A stretch of DNA of 38,396 bases from a virus (Duplodnaviria > Caudoviricetes). Every line of letters starts with the position of its first letter. Position 1 is the first letter of the stretch. The translations under genes and the position numbers were made by a program. The DNA is taken from the IMG/VR virus record IMGVR_UViG_3300032074_000016, positions 1-38,396 of that record. One strand, given 5' to 3'. A model generated the notes under the pieces. That model did not search any database. It was not told the origin of the DNA and saw nothing but the letters and a program-made list of their open reading frames with translations. Shown here piece by piece: positions 1-32,197 of the stretch.

Positions 1-445
1 GCGCCGGGTCGTGCAGGTAGCACTCCTCCACCAGGCAGTTGCTGCCCGCCTTGATGGCGTCCGCGAGCTGCGCATGGATGTTGCAGCGGCGCAGCGTGTA
101 CGGGGAGTAGTGCACGATCCCGGCGCTGGCCGCCCCGATCAGCTCGCACCATTCGACGAGGGTGCCGGTGACCGGGGTGCGGCTGGCGAAGTCCACGCAG
201 TACAGGGCGCTGCCGCCGCCGTCGATGCGGCAGTTGCGGATCGTCACGTCGTTGTGCCGGATCCGCACCGCGCCGAGCACGTCCAGGCCCTCGATGATCT
301 GCCCGTCGCTGCTGGTGGTGACCGGCCCGGACGGGGTGAGGTCGGCGTAGGCGAGCCCCGCGCCGAGCGGGCCGGTGTTGGTGCCGTCGATCTGGTGGCC
401 GTGGGTGATCGTCGGCGGCCACGGCGGGGCGGGCCACCCGGTCAT
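1..445 (-). CDS. Right-handed parallel beta-helix (pectate-lyase-like) protein, 3' truncated
   Basis: Not in the ORF track because it has no stop in the window. ATG 443-445 overlaps the stop of the upstream gene (ATGA). Hand translation: MTGWPAPPWPPTITHGHQIDGTNTGPLGAG...DGQIIEGLDVLGAVRIRHNDVTIRNCRIDG...YTLRRCNIH...CLVEECYLHD, showing beta-helix stacking motifs. Confidence 0.8.
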   Translation of the reverse strand, partial: MTGWPAPPWPPTITHGHQIDGTNTGPLGAGLAYADLTPSGPVTTSSDGQIIEGLDVLGAVRIRHNDVTIRNCRIDGGGSALYCVDFASRTPVTGTLVEWCELIGAASAGIVHYSPYTLRRCNIHAQLADAIKAGSNCLVEECYLHDPA

Positions 446-2646
446 GCGCTGACGGAGAAGTCGTCGAACTTCTGCGTGGTGTCGGTGGGCTGCGCCCAGC
501 CGATGCCGTGCTTGGTCGCCGTCGAGTTGAACGCGTCGGTGGCGGTCGCGGCCTGCACCCCGTTGACCTTGATCGTGACCGACGAGCCGGACAGCACCGC
601 CTGGATCACGTCACCGGCGGTCGGGGTGACGGCGATGTCCGTGCCGAGCTGCGTGAAGGCCCCGGCCACGTTCTTGTACAACTGGTACTTCCCGGTGGAC
701 CCGCGGGCCTGCAGCATCCAGTAGTTGCTGGCGTCGGTGCAGCGGAAGATCAGCCGCGGCATGACCGAGCCGGTGGCGGTGGCGGTCAGCTTGACCTGCA
801 CCGTGCCGTCAGCCAGCCCGGAGTCGATCACGGCCACCGAGTTGGAGGTGACCACCGCGTAGGCGGCGTTGCCGTTGATGCCGAGCGTGCCGGTGAGCGC
901 GGTCCACGCCTGCCCGGTGTCGGCAGTGCCGAGGCTGGTGGTGGAGTCGGCGCGGTTGAACGAGTCGGAGACGACCGCCCCGCCTCCCCCGGAGGCCGTG
1001 GTGGCGTTCACGCCGGCGGTCTGTGGCGACTGGTTCCCGGCTGCGTCGACCGCGGACACGGTGTAGCTGTAGACGGTGGAGGCGGTCAGGCCGGTGTCGG
1101 TGAACGTCGTGCCCGTGGGGGAGCCGACGAGCGTGCCACCCCGGTACACGCGGTAGCCGGCGACGGCCACGTTGTCGGTGCTCGCCGTCCAGCTCAGCGG
1201 CACCGAGGTGGCCGTCGTGGTGCCCACGATCAGCCCGGTCGGGGTCGACGGGGCGGTGGTGTCCGTGGCGGCGCCCGGCGTGGCCGTGGCCGTGGTGCTC
1301 GCGGTGCCCGGCCCGGCCGAGTTGACGGCGGTCACCCGGAAGTCGTACAGGCTGCCGGTGGTCAGCCCGGTCACGGTCAGCGACGTGCCGGTCGGGGTGC
1401 CCGCGCGGGTCCACGTGCTGTCGGTGTCGAGCTTGTACTCCACGTAGTAGATCGCCGCCCCGGACGGCGCCGACCAGGACACGGCGACACTGGTCGAGTT
1501 CGCCGACACCGCCGTCAGGCCGGTCACCTGCCCTGGCGACGCCGGGAGCGCCGGATCCGCGGTGCCGGTGGCGATGCGCTGGTAGGCATTGAACATGTTC
1601 CGCCCGATGGTGCGCTGCGCGGCGGCGTTGAAGTGGTTGCCGTCGCCCTGGTCCTGGCCGATCGGGGCGGTGGCGAACGACGTCTTGGCCAGCCGGGACG
1701 GCGTGGCCGCCTGCACGGTGTTGATCGCGGCGCGGCTACCGGACGGCAGGTACTCGGGGACCATCTGGCCGATGACGAACGGCAGGTTGGGCAGGGCTAG
1801 GTCGGTGCGCAGCCCGGCGATGAGCGCGTCCAGGTCGGCCTGGTACTGCGCGCCGCTGGTGCCCGAGTCGCCGTCGGTCTCGCCCTGCAGCCACAGGGCG
1901 GCGGTGATGCGGGCGTTGGGCCCGGCTGCCGCAAGCGCGGCCTGCGCCTGCGCGAGCGCCAGGGCGTACAGGTTCCCGGACACTCCGCGGCGCCAGCCCA
2001 GGGGGGTCGCGTTGGTGCTCAGGGCGGTGCCGCCGTGCGCGAAAGGAACGAGAAGCACCTGCCGGTTGACCGGCACACTGTCGGCGTACCAGCGGGCGAA
2101 CGCGAGCCCGGGGCCGATGCCGGTCGGGGTGTCGTGCTGGGCCAGCGGCTCGATGGCGAGGCTGATCACGTTGGCGTAGCTGCCGCTGGCGCCGTACTGC
2201 CAGATCCGCTGGCTGGACACGTCGTAGTGGGTGGTGTCGATGGGAGCGCCGCGTCCGGACATGTTCGACTGCCCGAGCAGCAGGATCAGGTCATAGCCGG
2301 AGTCCGTCGCGTTGACCCCACCACCACCACCGCCGCTGCCGCTGCCGACGACGGTGTCCACGCCGCCGACGGTGAGGATCAGGTTCCCGTTCCCGTCGAC
2401 GTGCACGAAGGCCGCCTCTAGTGCCACCCGTGCGTCCGTGCCCGGGGTCTGCAGATCCCCCAGCCGCACCAGCTCGGACGGGTCCGGGGACGGCGGCGGC
2501 GCGGCGGCGAGCAGCGTCGCCCGGTTCGCGTCGAGCGAGCCCGTCTTCGGCCGGTAGCCGTAGCCGTAGACGAGATCGACGAACTCGGAGATGGACGAGA
2601 CGGGGACCTCTTGGCCGGTCTTCGACAGCAGCACCACAGTGCTCAC
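442..2646 (-). CDS. SGNH/SASA (sialate O-acetylesterase-like) protein with two FN3 domains and a C-terminal beta-sandwich
   Basis: LLGQSNM, WLQGETD and DGNHF catalytic blocks. Two FN3 repeats (PGQVTGL...YDFRVTAVNSAG; APSTPTGL...YSYTVSAVDAAGN). AAGGAG 8 nt before the GTG. Confidence 0.9.
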   Translation of the reverse strand: MSTVVLLSKTGQEVPVSSISEFVDLVYGYGYRPKTGSLDANRATLLAAAPPPSPDPSELVRLGDLQTPGTDARVALEAAFVHVDGNGNLILTVGGVDTVVGSGSGGGGGGVNATDSGYDLILLLGQSNMSGRGAPIDTTHYDVSSQRIWQYGASGSYANVISLAIEPLAQHDTPTGIGPGLAFARWYADSVPVNRQVLLVPFAHGGTALSTNATPLGWRRGVSGNLYALALAQAQAALAAAGPNARITAALWLQGETDGDSGTSGAQYQADLDALIAGLRTDLALPNLPFVIGQMVPEYLPSGSRAAINTVQAATPSRLAKTSFATAPIGQDQGDGNHFNAAAQRTIGRNMFNAYQRIATGTADPALPASPGQVTGLTAVSANSTSVAVSWSAPSGAAIYYVEYKLDTDSTWTRAGTPTGTSLTVTGLTTGSLYDFRVTAVNSAGPGTASTTATATPGAATDTTAPSTPTGLIVGTTTATSVPLSWTASTDNVAVAGYRVYRGGTLVGSPTGTTFTDTGLTASTVYSYTVSAVDAAGNQSPQTAGVNATTASGGGGAVVSDSFNRADSTTSLGTADTGQAWTALTGTLGINGNAAYAVVTSNSVAVIDSGLADGTVQVKLTATATGSVMPRLIFRCTDASNYWMLQARGSTGKYQLYKNVAGAFTQLGTDIAVTPTAGDVIQAVLSGSSVTIKVNGVQAATATDAFNSTATKHGIGWAQPTDTTQKFDDFSVSA

Positions 2647-4628: not shown

Positions 4629-4799
4629 GTGAAGTTCACCGATGACGGGCTCGCAGTGCAGATGGCCGCCGATGAGGCCGATCGGTGGGTGGTGCATTTG
4701 GACGGGGCGACCACCGTCACCGTCATGGACCCTGAGACGGGCCACGTGTTCGCCGTCCGGAAGCCGGTGAAACCGCTCCGACTGACCGTCGAGGGCTAG
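4629..4799 (+). CDS. Small antisense hypothetical protein (56 aa), probably leaderless
   Basis: GTG AAG TTC... MKFTDDGLAVQMAADEADRWVVHLDGATTVTVMDPETGHVFAVRKPVKPLRLTVEG. High GC3. Fills a minus-strand gap. -10-like CAGACT (4617-4622) 6 nt upstream. Confidence 0.6.
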   Translation: MKFTDDGLAVQMAADEADRWVVHLDGATTVTVMDPETGHVFAVRKPVKPLRLTVEG

Positions 4800-5467: not shown

Positions 5468-7657
5468 TCAGGTGGTGGTCGACACGGGGGCGGTGGACGC
5501 GCCGTTGTTGAGCAGGGGCGCGGTGCTCGCGCCGTTGCCGGTGAGCGGCGCGGTGCTCGCGCCGTTGCTGGCGAGCGGCGCCAGGACGTAGGTGTGCGGC
5601 AGGGCGGCCGCCAGTGGGCGCAGGAGCCCCAGCCAGTGCGTGCCGATGTTGCTGGCGGCGCTGGCCGTGGCCGTGTACGTGTAGCTGCCCGGCGAGACGG
5701 GGCCGTTGCTGTCGGACCACTCCGCGTAGATGTTCGCCGAGTTCGTCACGCCCAGGTCGGTGTCGAGCCGCTCGGTCAGCGCCGGGTCGGGTGTCCACGA
5801 GACGGGCGAGGTGCCCCGGCCGAGGACGGCGAACACCGCCCAGGCGGTGCCGTCGGTGTTGGTCAGCGTCGGGGAGGCGTGCGCGGCCACGTTGGTGGCC
5901 TGCGTGACGGCGCCCTCGGCCAGGAACGGCGCGGCGGGGTTGACCCCGCGGTAGGCGGCGGCGTGGATGATCCAGCGGGTGACCGTGGCCGTGGTGAACG
6001 CGGGCCCGATCGTCGTCTCGGTGCCGTCCGCGATCCGGTAGTACAGGTCGGTCTGCCCCGCGTTGGGGGAGGTGCCGACGTCGAGGATGTTCCGGATGAA
6101 CTTCCAGCCGGTCGGGGTGCCCTGGGTCAGCGGGTAGTCGTTGGTGCGGTCGACCGCGACGATCAGCAGATCCCCGGCGGCGATCCCCGCCGGCAGCGTC
6201 GCCGTGCAGCTCGTGGTCGTCGTCGAGGCGCCGGCCGTGGCCACCGCCGCACCCACCCGGGTGATCTGCGGCCCCGGGTCGGCGTCTGGGCCGCCGAGCA
6301 CGACGTTGGTGGGGTCGGTGCCGCCGGTGACCAGCACCGTTCCCGACGCGGCACCGTTGGAGTACAGGGAGGTGCCGCTACCCGGGGTGCCCGACGTGGC
6401 AAGCTGGGCCTGCTCGATGCGCGCGGCCGGGTCAGCGACGTTGAGGAAGTAGCCGCCCGGGTTGCCGGTCAGCTTCAATCGGGCGAAGTAGACGGGCCCG
6501 ACGCAGTTGCTGTTGACCACGCAGAACGACGACCCGGAGGCGGTGTAGGCGCCGGTCATGGTCAGGTCGTGGTAATGCCGGTAGGCGCGGGCGCGGATGC
6601 TGATCGGGGAGGCGCCCGACTGGCCGGGGCCGTCGTCGGCGGTGGAGGTCCAGCCCACGTACTTGATGTCGGACAGGCCCTCGTGCAGGTGAAGCTTCGC
6701 CGGGATGCCCGCCGCGGCGGTGCCCGAGCAGCCCTCCATCAGCCAGTCACTGCTGCCGGTGGACGGCGCCACCCACGCCGGGTCACCCGTGCTCGAGGAG
6801 CCGTAGGAGTAGAACGAGCAGTTGGCGACGTGCACGCCGCGCGTGTAGCGGGATGCCAGCCCGTACTTGCCGGACTTGATGGTGCAGGAGTCGACGACCA
6901 CGCCCCACGCCTGGTGCAGCCACACGGCCATCGCCTGACCGGACGTCGGGTCCTGCATGTCGATGGTGAGCCCGCGCAGCGTGAACCCGGTCAGACAGTT
7001 CGGGCTCATCTTCGCCACGCCGTACACGCACGCCGCACCCTGCCCGCTCGGCGACGACGTGTCGTTGGCGGTCGCCCCGGAGGTCAGCAGGAACTCGGGG
7101 ACGTAGGGCTTCTTCGTCGGGAACTTCAGGTTCAGCACGGCCCCGGACACAGCGGTGACCACGTTCAGTTCGGCGTCCGGTTCGCGCAGCAGCGCCGACG
7201 CGGTGCAGGAGCCGGTGCGGATGAACACCACGTCGCCGGCCGTGAAATGGGCAGCGTCCGCGGCGCTGGCGAGGGTGATCGACGTGGCGCCCTGCGCGAT
7301 CGCGCCGGGCGGGGTGTAGGCGGTCGCCGACGTGATCCAGGTGTTGTTGTCGACCGGGTTCGTCGGCTCGGTCAGGCCGATGCCACCGGCGACGAGCAGC
7401 CGCATCCCGGGCACGGTGCCGACGATCCCGGCGCCCGCGTCGCCGGTGAGGGTGACGTTGCTGCGGGTGATCGCCAGGCCGTAGTCGCCGCCACCGGACA
7501 CCCCGGCCGTGCCGATGAAGCACTGCCCCGTGCCGGTGGCGCCCTTCTTCAGGTAGACGGTGCCGCCGGACGTGGGCAGGGAGTCGATGGCGGCCTGGAT
7601 GACGGCCCGGTCGTCGGTCACCCCGTCCGCGACCACGTTCGGGATGACTGTGGTCAT
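5468..7657 (-). CDS. Tailspike / depolymerase-like protein (pectate-lyase-3-type beta-helix plus C-terminal beta domain)
   Basis: True start is ATG 7655-7657 (ATGA overlap), not 8212. Begins VADGVTDDRAVIQAAIDSL..GGTVYL, the canonical tailspike beta-helix cap. 729 aa. Confidence 0.85.
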   Translation of the reverse strand: MTTVIPNVVADGVTDDRAVIQAAIDSLPTSGGTVYLKKGATGTGQCFIGTAGVSGGGDYGLAITRSNVTLTGDAGAGIVGTVPGMRLLVAGGIGLTEPTNPVDNNTWITSATAYTPPGAIAQGATSITLASAADAAHFTAGDVVFIRTGSCTASALLREPDAELNVVTAVSGAVLNLKFPTKKPYVPEFLLTSGATANDTSSPSGQGAACVYGVAKMSPNCLTGFTLRGLTIDMQDPTSGQAMAVWLHQAWGVVVDSCTIKSGKYGLASRYTRGVHVANCSFYSYGSSSTGDPAWVAPSTGSSDWLMEGCSGTAAAGIPAKLHLHEGLSDIKYVGWTSTADDGPGQSGASPISIRARAYRHYHDLTMTGAYTASGSSFCVVNSNCVGPVYFARLKLTGNPGGYFLNVADPAARIEQAQLATSGTPGSGTSLYSNGAASGTVLVTGGTDPTNVVLGGPDADPGPQITRVGAAVATAGASTTTTSCTATLPAGIAAGDLLIVAVDRTNDYPLTQGTPTGWKFIRNILDVGTSPNAGQTDLYYRIADGTETTIGPAFTTATVTRWIIHAAAYRGVNPAAPFLAEGAVTQATNVAAHASPTLTNTDGTAWAVFAVLGRGTSPVSWTPDPALTERLDTDLGVTNSANIYAEWSDSNGPVSPGSYTYTATASAASNIGTHWLGLLRPLAAALPHTYVLAPLASNGASTAPLTGNGASTAPLLNNGASTAPVSTTT
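5491..5580. repeat. 3 x 30-nt tandem repeat encoding APLxxNGAST
   Basis: Units at 5491-5520, 5521-5550 and 5551-5580. Confidence 0.9.
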
Positions 7658-11965: not shown

Positions 11966-14900
11966 TGGCCAACCACTCGTTCGCCGCCTGGTCCTTCGCC
12001 ATCTGGCGGGACAACTGCCGGTAGTCGACGTGCGCGTAGACCTCGCGCTGGTCGTAGATCACCGTGCGAGGTGAGCTGCCGGCGCGGTCGAGGTTCAAGG
12101 CTGCGGTGACGAGCCGCTGCGTGTACCGGTCCTCGGGTGCTGTCTGCACCCGCTCACCGACCTGCACGTACGCGGGGACGGTCGCACCGGGCGGGCCCTC
12201 GACGGGGCCGCCGCCGTGGTACCAGCCGTAGCGGGTTTCGTGTCCCCAGGCGCCGATCGGGTCGCCGTAGCGGCCCTTGATGTAACGCTCCATGCCCAGA
12301 ATCTGGGTGGCCGCGTCCGACGTCTTCCGCAGCCCGACCGTCGCCCACGTGGAGTCGAGGAACTGCGCGATCCCGTACGCGGTCGACGTCGGGTTCTGGG
12401 CGGTGTTCCGCCAGCCCGACTCCCTCTGCCCGAGCGCGTACCAGGCCGCCCATTCCGCCCCGGATCCCCAACCGAGCGCGGCGCCCATCCGCTGCGCCAG
12501 CAGCGCGTTCGCGTTCGGGTTCGACGGGACACCCGGCGCGAACGCCCGCGCCGCCGCCGCCAACTGCTTCTCCGCGGCCGCGAGCGACCCCGGGTCGATC
12601 CCGACGCGGGCAAGCAGCGACCAATCCGGAAGCATCCCGCCGGCGGCGAACCCCAGTGCCTTACGAACGCCGGACACACCACCCGAGCGAGCGGCGGCGT
12701 TGAGACCCATGAACCGGCCCGGGCCCATCGCCTGCACGACCTCCGGGCGGGCGATGCCCTCACCTCCGGACAGGTCCAGCGCAACCCCAGCGGTCGGCGA
12801 GGTGAAACGGTGCACATCCCGCCCCGGCGTCCAGCCGGGCAGCACAGCACCGGTCGCCGCCGCGAACCGGCCACCGATGCCGCCGACCCCCAGGTTGATC
12901 GAGTAGTTGTGGTAGTCCTTCGTCAGCTGAGTGATCGCGTCCCGCGCGGCCTGCGTATTCGCCGCAACCACGATCTGGTGGTTAGGCAGGTGGACGACCG
13001 TGTAGCCGAGGTCCTGCAGGTCCTTGATCTGACCGTCGGTGACGCCCTTGAGGACCGTGGCGTTGCCCTGGAACTCCTTGCGGAAACGATCGGACTCGGT
13101 GGCCGCCGTCAGGCCCATCTTGCTGACGGCATCGTTCACGTTCCCGGCCATGATCGTCGCACCGTGCAGCGCCTGGATGGCCTGCAGGATCGCGGTCGGC
13201 GTCGCGGTGCCCATCTGCTTGGCGACCTGCTCGAGCACCTGCAGCTGGGCCTGGTTCGCCGCGTTCGTGGTGTCGGTGACGCCCTTCGCCTTCGCCTGAG
13301 ACGCGGCGTACGTGCCGGCGGCCTGCGCGGCCGAGATGGCCGACTGGGCGATCGCCGACTGCTCCTCCGACAGCTGCGCGGCGGACACCTGGCCGGTGGC
13401 TGCATCCTTGTTGAACTGAGTGATCGTGTCGTTGAGGCCCTGCTGGGCCTGCTGCGCGGCGATACCGTTCTGGATCGAGGTCAGCGCCGAGGACGCCTGC
13501 TCCTGAAGCCGCTTGATCTGCGTCTTCTGCGCGTCGTTCGCCCGGGAGGTCTCGGTCGCGAGGTTCGCGTTCGCGTCCGCGAGGTTCTGTGCGGCGACCG
13601 CAACCGCGTGCGAGTTCGGTGGGTTGTTGTGCAGCGCGTCCGTCATGTCCTGGGTGGCGATCTTGACGCGCTGCGTCGCCTCCTCCACCGGGGTCATCGC
13701 CGCGGCCTGCCGCTTCCAAGCCGCGTTGCCCTGGTCTAGCTGGTTCTGGAGCTCCTTGAGCTTCATGCGTAGGCCGTCGATGTAGTTCCGGCTCGACGGG
13801 TCGTTCGGCTGGTTACCGGCGGAGGCGATCTGCTTCTGCAGGCTGGCGATGTGCTGCCGGAGCTCGTCGAGGTTCTGCCCGGCCTTGATCGCGGCCTGGC
13901 CACCCATTCCGAGCGCGATCGTCTCGTTCCACTGCTGCACGTCGCGGATGGACTTCTCCACCGCGGCGTTGTGCGCCTTGATCATCGCCACCAGACCGGC
14001 GACACCCACCCCGGCTGCGAGCAGCCCAGCGATCCACGGACCGCCGAGAACACGGAGCAGCCCCGACGCACCGGTCCGCATCGCCGCCAGCCCCCCGCGC
14101 GCGGCGGTCCCGGCTGCGGCGCCCAGACCGGCGAGCGCCCCCCGCGCCCCGGCAAGCGCCGCGCTGTCGCCCTGCACCGTCGACAGGAACGCGGCCTGCG
14201 CCGCCGTCTCCCGGTACGCGGCCTTCATCAGGCCCAGACTGGCCACCACTTTCACGCCCATCGCCTTGACCGTGTCGCCCAGGTACAGGGCGCGCAGGGC
14301 GATCCCGTCGAACCAATTCGCCGCCATCCCCAGCCGCAGCAACCCGAACGCCACCACCGCGGCCTGCACCTCGCCCGGCAGAGACCCGAAGGCGTGCACC
14401 AGCCCACCCACCGCGGGAACCGCCACCGACGACACCCCGCGGAACGCCCCGACCAGCCCGGAGAACGCTGCACCCGTGGCCACCGCGAGATCGTGCAGGC
14501 CGCCGGAGCCGACGAACTGCGACGCCAGGTGGCCGACGTCGCCGGCCAGGGCGCCGATCACCGGCGTCACCGCGGCGACCCCGGACTTCAGCCCGTCGAA
14601 CAGGCCCTTCACCGTGGAGGTGAACCCGCTCACCGCCGTCGAGTGGAAGAGGCCCTCCACCTTCCGCCCGAAGTTCTCGATCGCCGGCACGCCGGTCTGC
14701 GACAGCCAGTCGGCCACCTTCGACAGCGGCGGCAGCAGCGAGTTCCCGATCCGGATGCCGAGCACCTCGACCGAGGACTTCAGCGAGGCGAACGCGAACG
14801 CGGCGGTCTTCGTCGTGGCCTCCCACGACTTGGTGAACCCGTCCTGCCCCGCCTTCACCTCTTCGTACTTCTGCTGCAGCCGGTCGTACTGGCCGATCAG

Positions 14901-30047: not shown

Positions 30048-30416
30048 TCAGGGAGAGCCGCGGTCACCGTTCGCCACCTCAAGCAGGACGTCGGCGTGGC
30101 ACGGCTGATCCAGCGGGCACCAGCAGGCCAGATCGCGGCCGGCGAGCGTCTCTCGCGCTGCCTGTACGGCCGCTGGACGGCAGAGCAGCCACGCGCGGTA
30201 CAGGTCGACGGCGAGCTGCCGGGTGACAGGCATCGCGCAGCCCCAGGCGTCGGAGCTGTAGCGCTTGCCCGGCTCGTAGTCGACGACGGAGATCTCGTGG
30301 CCGACGCGGAACGGGTTGCCCCATCCTTCCTTGTCGCCACGGCCGACGTAGACCGCGGCTTCGGGCATTCGCCAGCCCTTGCGACGGCTCCGCCGGATGC
30401 GTTGCGGGGCCGTCAT
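30048..30416 (-). CDS. DUF4326-like protein
   Basis: RRKGWRMPEAAVYVGR...WGNPF...LAGRDLACWCPLDQPCHADVLLEVAN. ATG 30414-30416 (ATGA). Confidence 0.9.
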   Translation of the reverse strand: MTAPQRIRRSRRKGWRMPEAAVYVGRGDKEGWGNPFRVGHEISVVDYEPGKRYSSDAWGCAMPVTRQLAVDLYRAWLLCRPAAVQAARETLAGRDLACWCPLDQPCHADVLLEVANGDRGSP

Positions 30417-30889
30417 GGCGCCAACCTCCGGGCGCCGGTGTGTGCGGCCCACCCGGAGCACAGCTCCGCCGGGGACCCGTCCGCCTTCCACGGCCGGCCG
30501 TCGCGGATGAACGGCCGGTAGTCGTCGGTCGTGGGCGCCGGAACTACCACGTCACCGAGCGTCGGATGCCGGTAGCCGACCGCGCGAGGCATCCCCGCAT
30601 GGCAGTAGAACCGATCCGACCGGGTGAACCCGGGGGTGTCGCCGTCGAGCTCCTCCCGCTCGGGCGAGCCCGGCCGGTAGGCGCAGTCGGCGCACATCCG
30701 CCGGCGGATCAGATGCGGCCCCTCCTGGACGACCGGCGTCGGGTGGACGTCGAGCACCGCGGTCCAGCAGGTGCAACCATCACCGGCGACGGCACCCCAG
30801 CAGCACGCCCCGTCCGGATCCGCGGACGGCATGTTCGCCGGCCCCGACGGCTGCTGCAGCCGGCCCTGCTCGGTATAGATCGTGCTCAT
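30413..30889 (-). CDS. Cys-rich putative Zn-binding protein (158 aa)
   Basis: ATG 30887-30889. CCWG...CTCW, MCADCAYRPGSPE, FYCH and LCSGW. Confidence 0.8.
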   Translation of the reverse strand: MSTIYTEQGRLQQPSGPANMPSADPDGACCWGAVAGDGCTCWTAVLDVHPTPVVQEGPHLIRRRMCADCAYRPGSPEREELDGDTPGFTRSDRFYCHAGMPRAVGYRHPTLGDVVVPAPTTDDYRPFIRDGRPWKADGSPAELCSGWAAHTGARRLAP

Positions 30890-31125
30890 TCGGCGCCTAC
30901 CGTTGCGGCCGTGGCCGACGACGCGGACGTGCGGCACTTCGAAGAGCCGCGTCCGGTGCTCGTGCTCCACGGCGACGGCCGTTGGTACGCCGGGTTGTGC
31001 GAGGGCTGGTCGCGGTGGGCCGACGGGATCTGGCGGGCCTCGGTGACGTACTCGGTGGCGCCCGGGGAGAAGTACGTGCGGTCCGTGCCGCCGGAGCGAG
31101 TGCGCCCGGACGTGTAGCCGGTCAC
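30886..31125 (-). CDS. 79-aa linker ORF coupled at both ends (possibly non-functional peptide)
   Basis: GTGA overlap at 31122-31125 and ATGA overlap at 30886-30889. The product is S/T/R-rich and looks unstructured. Confidence 0.45.
   Translation of the reverse strand: MTGYTSGRTRSGGTDRTYFSPGATEYVTEARQIPSAHRDQPSHNPAYQRPSPWSTSTGRGSSKCRTSASSATAATVGAE
30911..31117 (+). CDS. Small SH3/Tudor-like beta protein (68 aa), leaderless antisense gene
   Basis: MADDADVRHFEEPRPVLVLHGDGRWYAGLCEGWSRWADGIWRASVTYSVAPGEKYVRSVPPERVRPDV. TACCGT (30898-30903) lies 7 nt before the GTG. Confidence 0.7.
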   Translation: MADDADVRHFEEPRPVLVLHGDGRWYAGLCEGWSRWADGIWRASVTYSVAPGEKYVRSVPPERVRPDV

Positions 31126-31688
31126 CGCCGGGCCGCCCAGTCCTCGGCCCAGGCGGCGAGGTCGGCCGGGCACACCTCGCCGGGCTGGCGACCGTCCGCG
31201 AAGAGGTGGACACTCTCGGCCGCGTAGACGGCGTCGACGAGCTGGGCGCACTGCACATGACCGCTGGAGGCGACGTAGCGCCGCAGCGCCTTCGAGGGCA
31301 GCTGCAGGTGCAGGGCGGCGATCGCTGCGTAGTCCAGCCACGAGTAGCCGATGCCGACGTAGTTGTGCGCCTGGGTGACGAGGTCGCGGCGCAGGGTGGT
31401 CTCGACCGCGGCGCGCCCCTTGGGATCGCCCGGCAGGACGTTCGCGGCAAGCCACTGCTGCACCGGTCCATCGCAGACGATCAGCCCGTCGCCGGCGTAC
31501 TCGGCGATGTTGGCCAGCCGAGCGCCACCAGGTTCGGCCTCGAGGATGGTGCCGTCCGCGTGGAGGATCAGGCCGCAATGCTTGTAGCGGGACGCGTCGT
31601 TGACGAGGGCCTGCGCGACGCCGATCCAGAAGCCGCCGGGCCCCGCGACGTCGACCACGAAGAATGAGCCGGGCAGGTAGTCGCTCAT
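31122..31688 (-). CDS. Permuted papain-like NlpC/P60 (YiiX/YebB-like) enzyme
   Basis: PG.., YKHCGL, ILEAEPGG, GIGYS and VQCAQLVDAVY. The His precedes the Cys. Confidence 0.82.
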   Translation of the reverse strand: MSDYLPGSFFVVDVAGPGGFWIGVAQALVNDASRYKHCGLILHADGTILEAEPGGARLANIAEYAGDGLIVCDGPVQQWLAANVLPGDPKGRAAVETTLRRDLVTQAHNYVGIGYSWLDYAAIAALHLQLPSKALRRYVASSGHVQCAQLVDAVYAAESVHLFADGRQPGEVCPADLAAWAEDWAARR

Positions 31689-32197
31689 CGGTCAGCCGCC
31701 AGCAGAGCGGTGACCAGCTCATCGACGGCCCTCTGCGCCGCCGCTGCGAGCTTCCGCACCCTGCGGCTCGGGTGATCGAGGCCGACGGCGAGGAAGTCGG
31801 CAGGCGGCGGAGGCGGCACGGCCGGGGGAGCGGCAGCGGGCACGGAGATGTCCTCTCTCGGTTCGGGAAGCGGCTTGGAGGTGATGCGCTCGACCATGCG
31901 GTCGTAGGAGACGGCGGCCGCGGCGACGGCCGGGTCGGTGCGCTCGAGTTCTTCCCCGCGGCCCCAGCGGCGGGCACGGCGGGCGGCCACCACACGCTGC
32001 AGGCGGTGCACGATCACCGGCTCCGCCGCCTCCGCCGCCGGCGACGACATCAACGCCGCCAGCCGCTGATAGAACCGCACCGGAGAGATGCCGAACCGGT
32101 CCCTGATCGCCTGCTCCTTCGCCGCGGCGTTGTTCCAGTGCTCGCCGGCCAGACGCAGCACCGCCCGGTCCTCCTCGGCCAGCCGGGCGGCGGTCAC
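31685..32197 (-). CDS. DUF3263-like protein with C-terminal extension
   Basis: DRAVL...W...AAKEQAIRDRFGISPVRFYQRLAAL...P.IVHRL. Confidence 0.85.
   Translation of the reverse strand: MTAARLAEEDRAVLRLAGEHWNNAAAKEQAIRDRFGISPVRFYQRLAALMSSPAAEAAEPVIVHRLQRVVAARRARRWGRGEELERTDPAVAAAAVSYDRMVERITSKPLPEPREDISVPAAAPPAVPPPPPADFLAVGLDHPSRRVRKLAAAAQRAVDELVTALLAADR

What the first reader, a model, noticed from the sequence alone, without database searches (positions are those of the whole stretch)
30886..31125. Fully nested antiparallel genes: a leaderless SH3-like gene inside a coupling-preserving ORF
Seen: the plus ORF 30911-31117 looks like a folded Trp-rich beta protein and has a textbook TANNNT (TACCGT) 7 nt before its GTG. 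It lies wholly inside minus ORF 30886-31125, whose start and stop form exact GTGA and ATGA overlaps with its neighbours. The two frames share third codon positions. The minus product looks unstructured. Inference: an inverted moron was accommodated by a 'bridge' ORF that carries ribosomes across it, so the early operon stays coupled. The plus transcript would also be antisense to the lytic operon. This is a possible case of de novo gene birth by overprinting.
Basis: partly seen in the sequence, partly recalled or inferred. Interest (0 to 1): 0.7.

Follow-up and report, generated by a model that had tools for sequence, protein, structure and literature searches.

The report
Ribosome bridge across inverted phage gene
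A small gene sits backwards inside a soil phage's tightly linked gene cluster, and the opposite strand stays readable from one neighbour to the next; unrelated phages show the same layout more often than chance, so it likely lets ribosomes ride across inserted cargo rather than making a useful second protein.

Summary
Plus ORF 30911-31117 is a real gene: about 230 homologue clusters, 64 of 401 Actinomycetes genomes, a confident five-strand SH3/Tudor-like barrel model, and the window's only TANNNT-6/7-nt-RTG start. Minus ORF 30886-31125 has no homologue, mirror-image codon composition and stops in 40 of 44 relatives, so its peptide is very likely junk, although public gene callers recorded it instead of the real gene. 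At this locus alone the bridge is weak evidence: chance gives it 16-44% of the time, depending on the null, and RTGA junctions are the operon's norm (15 of 17). As a class it holds. In 147 other GC-rich phage loci, 7 of 21 operon-internal inverted cassettes carry complete restart chains against 1.5 expected (p about 1e-5; strict single-bridge definition 3 versus 0.35, p 0.002), up to 475 codons over three genes. Chromosomal controls show no excess (2 of 53 versus 1.0). Best reading: insertions that leave a translatable path on the operon strand are preferentially kept, through coupling or protection from Rho. Translation is untested, the coupled chain here ends two genes downstream, and de novo gene birth is unsupported. 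Closest known: noncontiguous operons and MIRU coupling.

The parts
30911..31117 (+). Real inserted gene: 68-aa stand-alone SH3-fold (Tudor/chromo-barrel-like) beta-barrel protein of an unnamed actinobacterial family; predicted leaderless
30898..30903 (+). -10 hexamer TACCGT, 7 nt before the GTG (predicted leaderless promoter); same TACCGT-7nt-GTG layout in relative L029
30886..31125 (-). 79-codon bridge ORF in the third-position-sharing antisense frame; likely translated spacer, peptide without homologues
31122..31125 (-). GTGA junction: stop of the upstream gene overlaps the bridge start
30886..30889 (-). ATGA junction: bridge stop overlaps the start of the downstream gene
30890..31121 (.). 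232-nt insert between the two operon genes (gene, -10 box, 4 and 8 flanking bases); operon-strand RNA is C-rich (C100, G72; best 78-nt C/G 2.11, top 7% of operon windows)
31122..31688 (-). Upstream operon gene, 188 aa, relative of Streptomyces phage 'peptidase/cysteine protease' genes (phrog_1128)
30413..30889 (-). Downstream operon gene, 158 aa, Cys-rich, relative of Gordonia phage Savbucketdawg gene 70; weak ribosome-binding site; all 4 relatives examined start in an overlap with an unrelated upstream frame
30048..30416 (-). DUF4326 gene, coupled by ATGA to the downstream gene; last gene of the overlap chain before an 81-nt gap
30413..31471 (-). Codon-on-codon antisense frame, also stop-free across the insert and in frame with the downstream gene (a second open path; shows how easily frames stay open here)

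Best explanation
A 68-codon SH3/Tudor-like gene with a predicted leaderless promoter lies backwards in the phage's early operon, and the 79-codon frame opposite it likely acts as a translated spacer that would hand ribosomes from the upstream gene to the downstream one, its peptide likely being of no use. Shown: the geometry, the reality of the plus gene, the junk signature of the bridge, and the excess of such bridges in other phages. Inferred: ribosomes ending the upstream gene restart at GTGA, cross the insert, and restart at ATGA. This would feed the downstream gene's weak start and cover a C-rich stretch on which Rho could otherwise load. The junctions are probably relics of the operon's usual coupling, and the frame is a filtered accident: insertions that leave such a path are kept, polar ones are lost. 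Also inferred: the plus gene is expressed when the operon is silent and is damped by convergent transcription when it fires, as in noncontiguous operons.
For: Plus gene: 5 homologues at 61-78%, 234 clusters (three long repeat proteins among them are false hits), 64 of 401 genomes, pLDDT 91, unique TANNNT-RTG, same layout in L029. Bridge as a class: 7 of 21 operon-internal cassettes in viral contigs complete versus 1.49 expected, p 9e-6; 9 of 61 overall versus 2.52; cassettes with a leaderless promoter 6 of 25 versus 1.12; all chains discrete. Strict definitions give 3 versus 0.35 (p 0.002) and 5 versus 1.02 (p 0.001), and positive loci share at most 2.3 kb. Chromosomal control 2 of 53 versus 1.02, p 0.27. 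0 of 12 bridges but 8 of 17 cargo genes hit Pfam or PHROGs, 5 of them clearly. Here: the downstream start ties for second-weakest of 19 in the operon (-5.7 kcal/mol), the insert is C-rich, and both codons that could close the frame (T46, V68) use the open choice. Literature: RTGA overlaps couple translation (PMC6728339) and may suppress Rho termination in M. tuberculosis (10.1101/2022.06.01.494293).
Against: This locus alone is not significant (0.16 recoding only; 0.23 discrete; 0.44 any path). RTGA junctions are the default (15 of 17), and all 4 relatives of the downstream gene start in an overlap anyway. The chain ends after two accessory genes, so little may be at stake. Across phages, bridged downstream genes do not have weaker ribosome-binding sites (median -7.9 versus -4.6; unbridged starts are less reliably placed), which argues against ribosome delivery as the general benefit. 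14 of 21 internal cassettes have no complete chain. Genes were called by my own codon model; one false positive (L152r, an integrase) was dropped; chain depth was raised after seeing L093. The chromosomal control is small (11 cassettes with a restart). No close relative of this phage allows dN/dS.
Confidence: 0.66

Rival explanations
1. Chance shadow. The plus gene landed between two pre-existing RTGA junctions; the antisense frame is open and in register by luck; any translation is incidental and was never selected.
For: Probability 0.16-0.44 at this locus; only two codon choices matter; 4 of 44 relatives have the frame open without any bridge role; all three minus frames are open over the gene's coding part; the coupled chain ends two genes later.
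Against: Complete chains are about five times more frequent than this null in phage operons and not in chromosomes; with that prior the posterior for selection at this locus is about 0.75 (my arithmetic).
Confidence: 0.26
2. The bridge is a young functional gene born by overprinting, for example an inhibitor of the plus product made when the lytic operon fires.
For: It would be made at the right time; an antisense-encoded inhibitor exists in S. aureus phage 80alpha (Ith/Tha, PMC11087260); its codon score is slightly positive (0.09 per codon).
Confidence: 0.06
3. The minus ORF is an ordinary operon gene, as public gene callers recorded, and the plus ORF is its shadow.
For: JGI/IMG, Logan and ENA hold the minus protein, and the plus protein is not in the collection; perfect overlaps on both sides.
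Against: Only the plus protein has relatives, a conserved aromatic core and a confident fold.
Confidence: 0.02

Closest known systems
Noncontiguous operons of S. aureus phages (ith-1/tha-1 and orf11, orf17, orf72 of 80alpha; PMC11087260, abstract and passages read)
   Same: An antisense gene with its own promoter nested within an operon; expression of the two is predicted to alternate.
   Different: In the passages read, no operon-strand ORF spans the nested gene with start-stop overlaps at both ends; there the antisense product has a shown function.
Mycobacterial interspersed repetitive units, MIRUs (as described in the review PMC12548453, section 11 read; the original paper was not read)
   Same: [quoted passage not shown]
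   Different: MIRUs are short repeats without cargo; here the coupling frame is the antisense of a real, unrelated protein gene and differs at every site.
RTGA-coupled small ORFs of mycobacteria (PMC4633059, passages read)
   Same: The linkage, not the peptide, appears to be what is kept; leaderless starts are common in the group.
   Different: Those ORFs begin transcripts; this one is internal, coupled at both ends and overlies an antisense gene.
Long antiparallel (shadow) ORFs (10.1101/724807, abstract read)
   Same: Stop-free antisense frame without protein-level selection.
   Different: Ends are fixed to both neighbours, and such chains are enriched only inside phage operons in my test.
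Chromo-like/Tudor superfamily of SH3-fold barrels, including bacterial versions (PMC5906684, parts 1-3 of 7 read); plus protein only
   Same: Five-strand barrel; best structural matches are Tudor, PWWP and chromo-barrel domains (Z up to 7.0); 8 of 88 members hit Pfam Agenet (best E 1.3e-6).
   Different: The described bacterial versions are secreted, multidomain and nearly absent from actinobacteria; this family is mostly stand-alone, 55-100 aa and actinobacterial; Z under 8 may be only a common fold.

Membership tests
Noncontiguous operon | Antisense gene nested between co-oriented operon genes | tested here: met
Noncontiguous operon | Nested gene has its own promoter | tested here: inconclusive
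   Unique TANNNT-7nt-GTG, shared with relatives; no start-site mapping
Noncontiguous operon | One transcript runs across the nested gene and the two are mutually regulated | not testable with these tools
   Needs stranded RNA data; only 4 nt lie between the convergent stops, no terminator-like site found
Translationally coupled (termination-reinitiation) gene chain | Stop-start overlaps at -4 or -1 | tested here: met
   GTGA and ATGA
Translationally coupled (termination-reinitiation) gene chain | Downstream translation depends on upstream translation | not testable with these tools
   Weak ribosome-binding site is only consistent with it
Protein-coding antisense overlapping gene pair | Both frames conserved and under purifying selection | tested here: not met
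   Minus frame has stops in 40 of 44 relatives and no homologue; dN/dS not possible without close relatives
MIRU-type element | Short repeat found at many sites | tested here: not met
   Bridges lie over unrelated cargo in unrelated phages
Chromo-like/Tudor superfamily (plus protein) | Five-strand SH3-fold barrel | tested here: met
Chromo-like/Tudor superfamily (plus protein) | Significant sequence or structure match to a member | tested here: inconclusive
   Window protein has no Pfam hit; 8 of 88 relatives hit Agenet; PDB profile hits E 0.6-0.9, all four Tudor/Agenet/chromo; Z at most 7.0
Chromo-like/Tudor superfamily (plus protein) | Aromatic cage | tested here: inconclusive
   H20, Y26, Y47 aromatic in 66, 74, 85 of 88 and align with H, Y, Y of MRG2; that these are cage positions, and that a further cage residue is missing, is recalled; geometry not measured
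LexA (SOS)-regulated gene | SOS box at the promoter | tested here: not met
   None in the window; 1 of 44 relatives (L008) has one (motif recalled)

The most novel reading that the evidence does not exclude
Bridge ORFs are a general, selected design rule of phage mosaicism: backwards cargo is tolerated inside a coupled early operon mainly when the operon strand stays translatable across it. Many 'hypothetical proteins' in phage early operons are then translated spacers that hide real antisense genes, and they form a standing pool of translated junk from which new genes can arise.
Probability: 0.55. Interest if true: 0.8.

Novelty: new variant of a known kind. Interest (0 to 1): 0.62.

Why it matters
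If true, translation without a useful product shapes where phages can carry extra genes. It would explain a class of annotation errors in which the spacer is called and the real gene is missed, as happened here. It also gives a simple test of whether ribosome traffic, by coupling or by shielding from Rho, is what a phage operon needs. The hidden gene belongs to a widespread, unnamed actinobacterial family with a Tudor-like fold, in a group where such domains were reported to be nearly absent.

Tried and rejected
Close relatives of the locus for dN/dS: none in viral contigs with the plus protein, its alignment or two homologues, none in GenBank phages, none in 167 phage or prophage loci searched in part (searches cover the viral loci). 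Metagenome scan gave the same phage (L007), one true homologue (L008) and two false hits; the genome scan gave one false hit, L006. Expression: no RNA holder listed. SOS regulation of the family: suggested by L008, rejected (1 of 44; none in the window). PafBC-type promoter: not at this gene (motif recalled). Conserved gene neighbourhood: none seen in 15 loci. Defence system or named family: no PADLOC hit for 7 proteins, one weak NCBIfam hit among 88. Rfam: nothing in the window or the leaders of 18 loci apart from tRNAs. Sigma-70 and terminator scan: nothing. Fold search: no match with E under 0.001 in PDB or BFVD; Sm/Hfq was not among the listed rows. L152r was dropped from the bridge count because its 'bridge' is an integrase. 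My first reading, pure chance shadow at 75%, was lowered. Whether the phage is temperate is open: no integrase or repressor was among the ORFs scanned, and a longer contig of 45,675 bases is on record. No complex prediction was run. Eight literature searches listed no paper describing coupling-preserving ORFs across inverted phage genes; subscription papers and supplements were not seen.

Full report
Setting. The window is a 38,396-base virus record, about 70% G+C, with terminase, portal, capsid and tail genes and an early region all on the minus strand. Its best cultured matches are distant actinobacterial phages (terminase about 32%). The finding lies in the early region, between a peptidase-like gene (31122-31688) and a Cys-rich gene (30413-30889).

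Observation. Every coordinate is right. The insert between the two operon genes is 232 bases: the plus gene, a -10 box, and 4 and 8 flanking bases. TACCGT at 30898 is the only one of 9 TANNNT sites in the window with ATG or GTG 6-7 bases later. The sequence is the same in a second assembly and in contigs of two runs that may be its source.

Which frame is the gene. The plus protein has 5 relatives at 61-78% and 234 clusters by profile (three long repeat proteins among them are false). The family occurs in 64 of 401 Actinomycetes genomes (three of the 64 are unpublished). AlphaFold2 gives five strands at pLDDT 91. The nearest solved folds are Tudor, PWWP and chromo-barrel domains and the integrase C-terminal domain, Z at most 7.0, which the tool says may be only a common arrangement. 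Eight of 88 members hit Pfam Agenet. Members stand alone in varied neighbourhoods (15 loci viewed). A leaderless layout recurs in L008, L023 and L029, the last with TACCGT-7nt-GTG exactly. Four close protein records (P0006, P0008, P0010, P0016) begin three codons earlier, as expected if the last T of a -10 box supplies a false start; this is inference. In mycobacteria an ATG or GTG at the 5' end is enough for translation (PMC4633059, passages). The minus protein finds only itself, no Atlas look-alike and no family. Its GC1 and GC2 are the plus gene's swapped, and its frame holds stops in 40 of 44 family loci (one locus, L024, is unpublished). Yet it is the protein on record in JGI/IMG, Logan and ENA, and the plus protein is not in that collection.

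Is the bridge more than chance here? Not alone. 15 of the 17 other junctions in the operon are RTGA, and all 4 relatives of the downstream gene start in an overlap with unrelated upstream frames, so both junctions can be relics. The frame has 1.8% stops per codon in this phage's genes, and 30% of 79-codon windows are open. Synonymous recoding keeps it open 15-19% of the time, through two codon choices, T46 and V68. With a random frame shift a discrete chain arises 23% of the time and some path 44%, because the codon-on-codon frame is also open and in frame with the downstream gene.

Is it a class? Two earlier notes of this scan reported bridges in other phages (unchecked, not evidence), so I tested the idea. 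I fetched viral loci by a DUF4326 and a WhiB motif, kept those of 5 kb or more and at least 60% G+C, and added eight loci from other calls (147 besides the window) and 20 genome regions around DUF4326 (20 of 31 places). Genes were called with a codon model of my own. For each inverted cassette I asked whether start-stop overlaps lead from the upstream to the downstream gene. The null recodes the cargo and shifts frames at random but keeps the junction sequences. Of 83 cassettes 11 were complete; one was false, an integrase, and was dropped. In viral contigs 9 of 61 were complete against 2.52 expected (p 4e-5). Inside operons it was 7 of 21 against 1.49 (p 9e-6), outside 2 of 40 against 1.03 (p 0.28), and with a leaderless promoter 6 of 25 against 1.12. 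Against recoding alone, 7 against 3.18 (p 0.002). Forty chromosomal regions gave 2 of 53 against 1.02 (p 0.27). I raised the chain depth from 2 to 5 after seeing L093. With one bridge and only -4 or -1 overlaps the counts are 5 against 1.02 and 3 against 0.35 (p 0.001 and 0.002), and the positive loci share at most 2.3 kb. Examples: 475 codons over three genes (L281), 209 over two (L218), 227+159+18 over two (L093), and 222 in the same hard frame as the window (L121, recoding probability 0.02). None of 12 bridges hits Pfam or PHROGs; 8 of 17 cargo genes do, 5 clearly.

Mechanism. Start-stop overlaps couple translation (PMC6728339, passages), and in M. tuberculosis they go with less Rho-dependent termination (10.1101/2022.06.01.494293, passages). 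Here the bridge and downstream starts tie for second-weakest of 19 ribosome-binding sites, and the insert's operon-strand RNA is in the top 7% for C over G. So a ribosome leaving the upstream gene would restart, cross the insert, feed the downstream gene and cover a possible Rho loading site. All of this is inferred. Against a large effect: the overlap chain ends two genes later at an 81-base gap before a strong site; across phages bridged downstream genes do not have weaker sites; and 14 of 21 internal cassettes lack a complete chain. Taking the class rate as prior and 0.23 as the local chance, the odds that this bridge was selected are about three in four (my arithmetic). The plus gene's job is unknown. 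The fold and the conserved H20, W25, Y26, W41, Y47 and Y55 make a small binding module most likely; I would bet on nucleic acid or modified-peptide binding, expressed while the operon is silent (about 50%).

Known relatives. The transcription layout is that of noncontiguous operons in S. aureus phages (PMC11087260, abstract and passages). The coupling trick resembles MIRUs (review PMC12548453, section 11) and RTGA-coupled small ORFs. The peptide behaves like a shadow ORF (10.1101/724807, abstract). Eight searches listed no paper on coupling-preserving frames across inverted phage cargo; the library lacks most subscription papers, and no supplement was read. Bacterial chromo-like domains were described as secreted and nearly absent from actinobacteria (PMC5906684, parts 1-3 of 7), unlike this family; membership is not shown.

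Verdict. Observation confirmed. Interpretation partly supported: real leaderless gene, probable spacer, no sign of a new protein. New variant of a known kind; interest 0.62.

Noticed in passing
L012, L014, L017, L020, L027, L030, L044, L046, L058, L066, L067 and others, just upstream of the family gene: A conserved leader begins GGGTCGAG a few bases after a -10-like hexamer and often closes a hairpin with GG(C/T)CGACCC right before the start codon, hiding the ribosome-binding site. 27 of 45 loci matched the pattern (at least one match lies in coding sequence). No Rfam match. Possible new cis-regulatory RNA; absent from the window's copy.
   Followed up: partly
L032, L033, L036, L038, L039, upstream of the family gene: A leaderless mini-ORF of 4-5 codons (TANNNT, 6 nt, ATG) ends in TGA overlapping the gene's GTG.
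   Followed up: partly
L008 about 595-635: Perfect SOS-box-like palindrome before a leaderless family gene, near a tRNA and an excisionase-like ORF.
   Followed up: partly
L281:10360-11787 +: 475-codon bridge, GTGA to GTGA, over three inverted genes (DUF6042, GIY-YIG with Phd-like part, small unnamed), all in the codon-on-codon frame; chance 0.016. Best test case.
   Followed up: partly
L121:10080-10748 + and 13651-14526 +; L093:14245-15457 -; L218:6292-6921 +; L094:7080-7475 +: Further bridges over unrelated cargo (membrane protein, ribbon-helix-helix and Arc-like genes); the second L121 frame stops inside the cassette.
   Followed up: partly
P0048, P0080, P0115, P0143, P0153, P0087: Family domain fused behind a roughly 65-aa N-terminal part that looks HicB-like by eye (no Pfam hit), or behind an HNH nuclease.
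   Followed up: partly
window 31122-31688 -: Peptidase-like gene with His before Cys, the order of permuted papain-like enzymes (recalled); relatives in 113 Streptomyces phage records.
   Followed up: no
window 30886-31995 -: The bridge frame stays open for 369 codons upstream, through the whole peptidase-like gene.
   Followed up: no
window 4629-4799 +: Short plus-strand ORF (56 aa) with a positive codon score between lysis-region genes; possibly a second inverted gene.
   Followed up: no
window 442-2646 - and 5468-7657 -: Tail-associated proteins with a sialic-acid-acetylesterase-type domain plus fibronectin repeats, and a pectate-lyase-like start.
   Followed up: no
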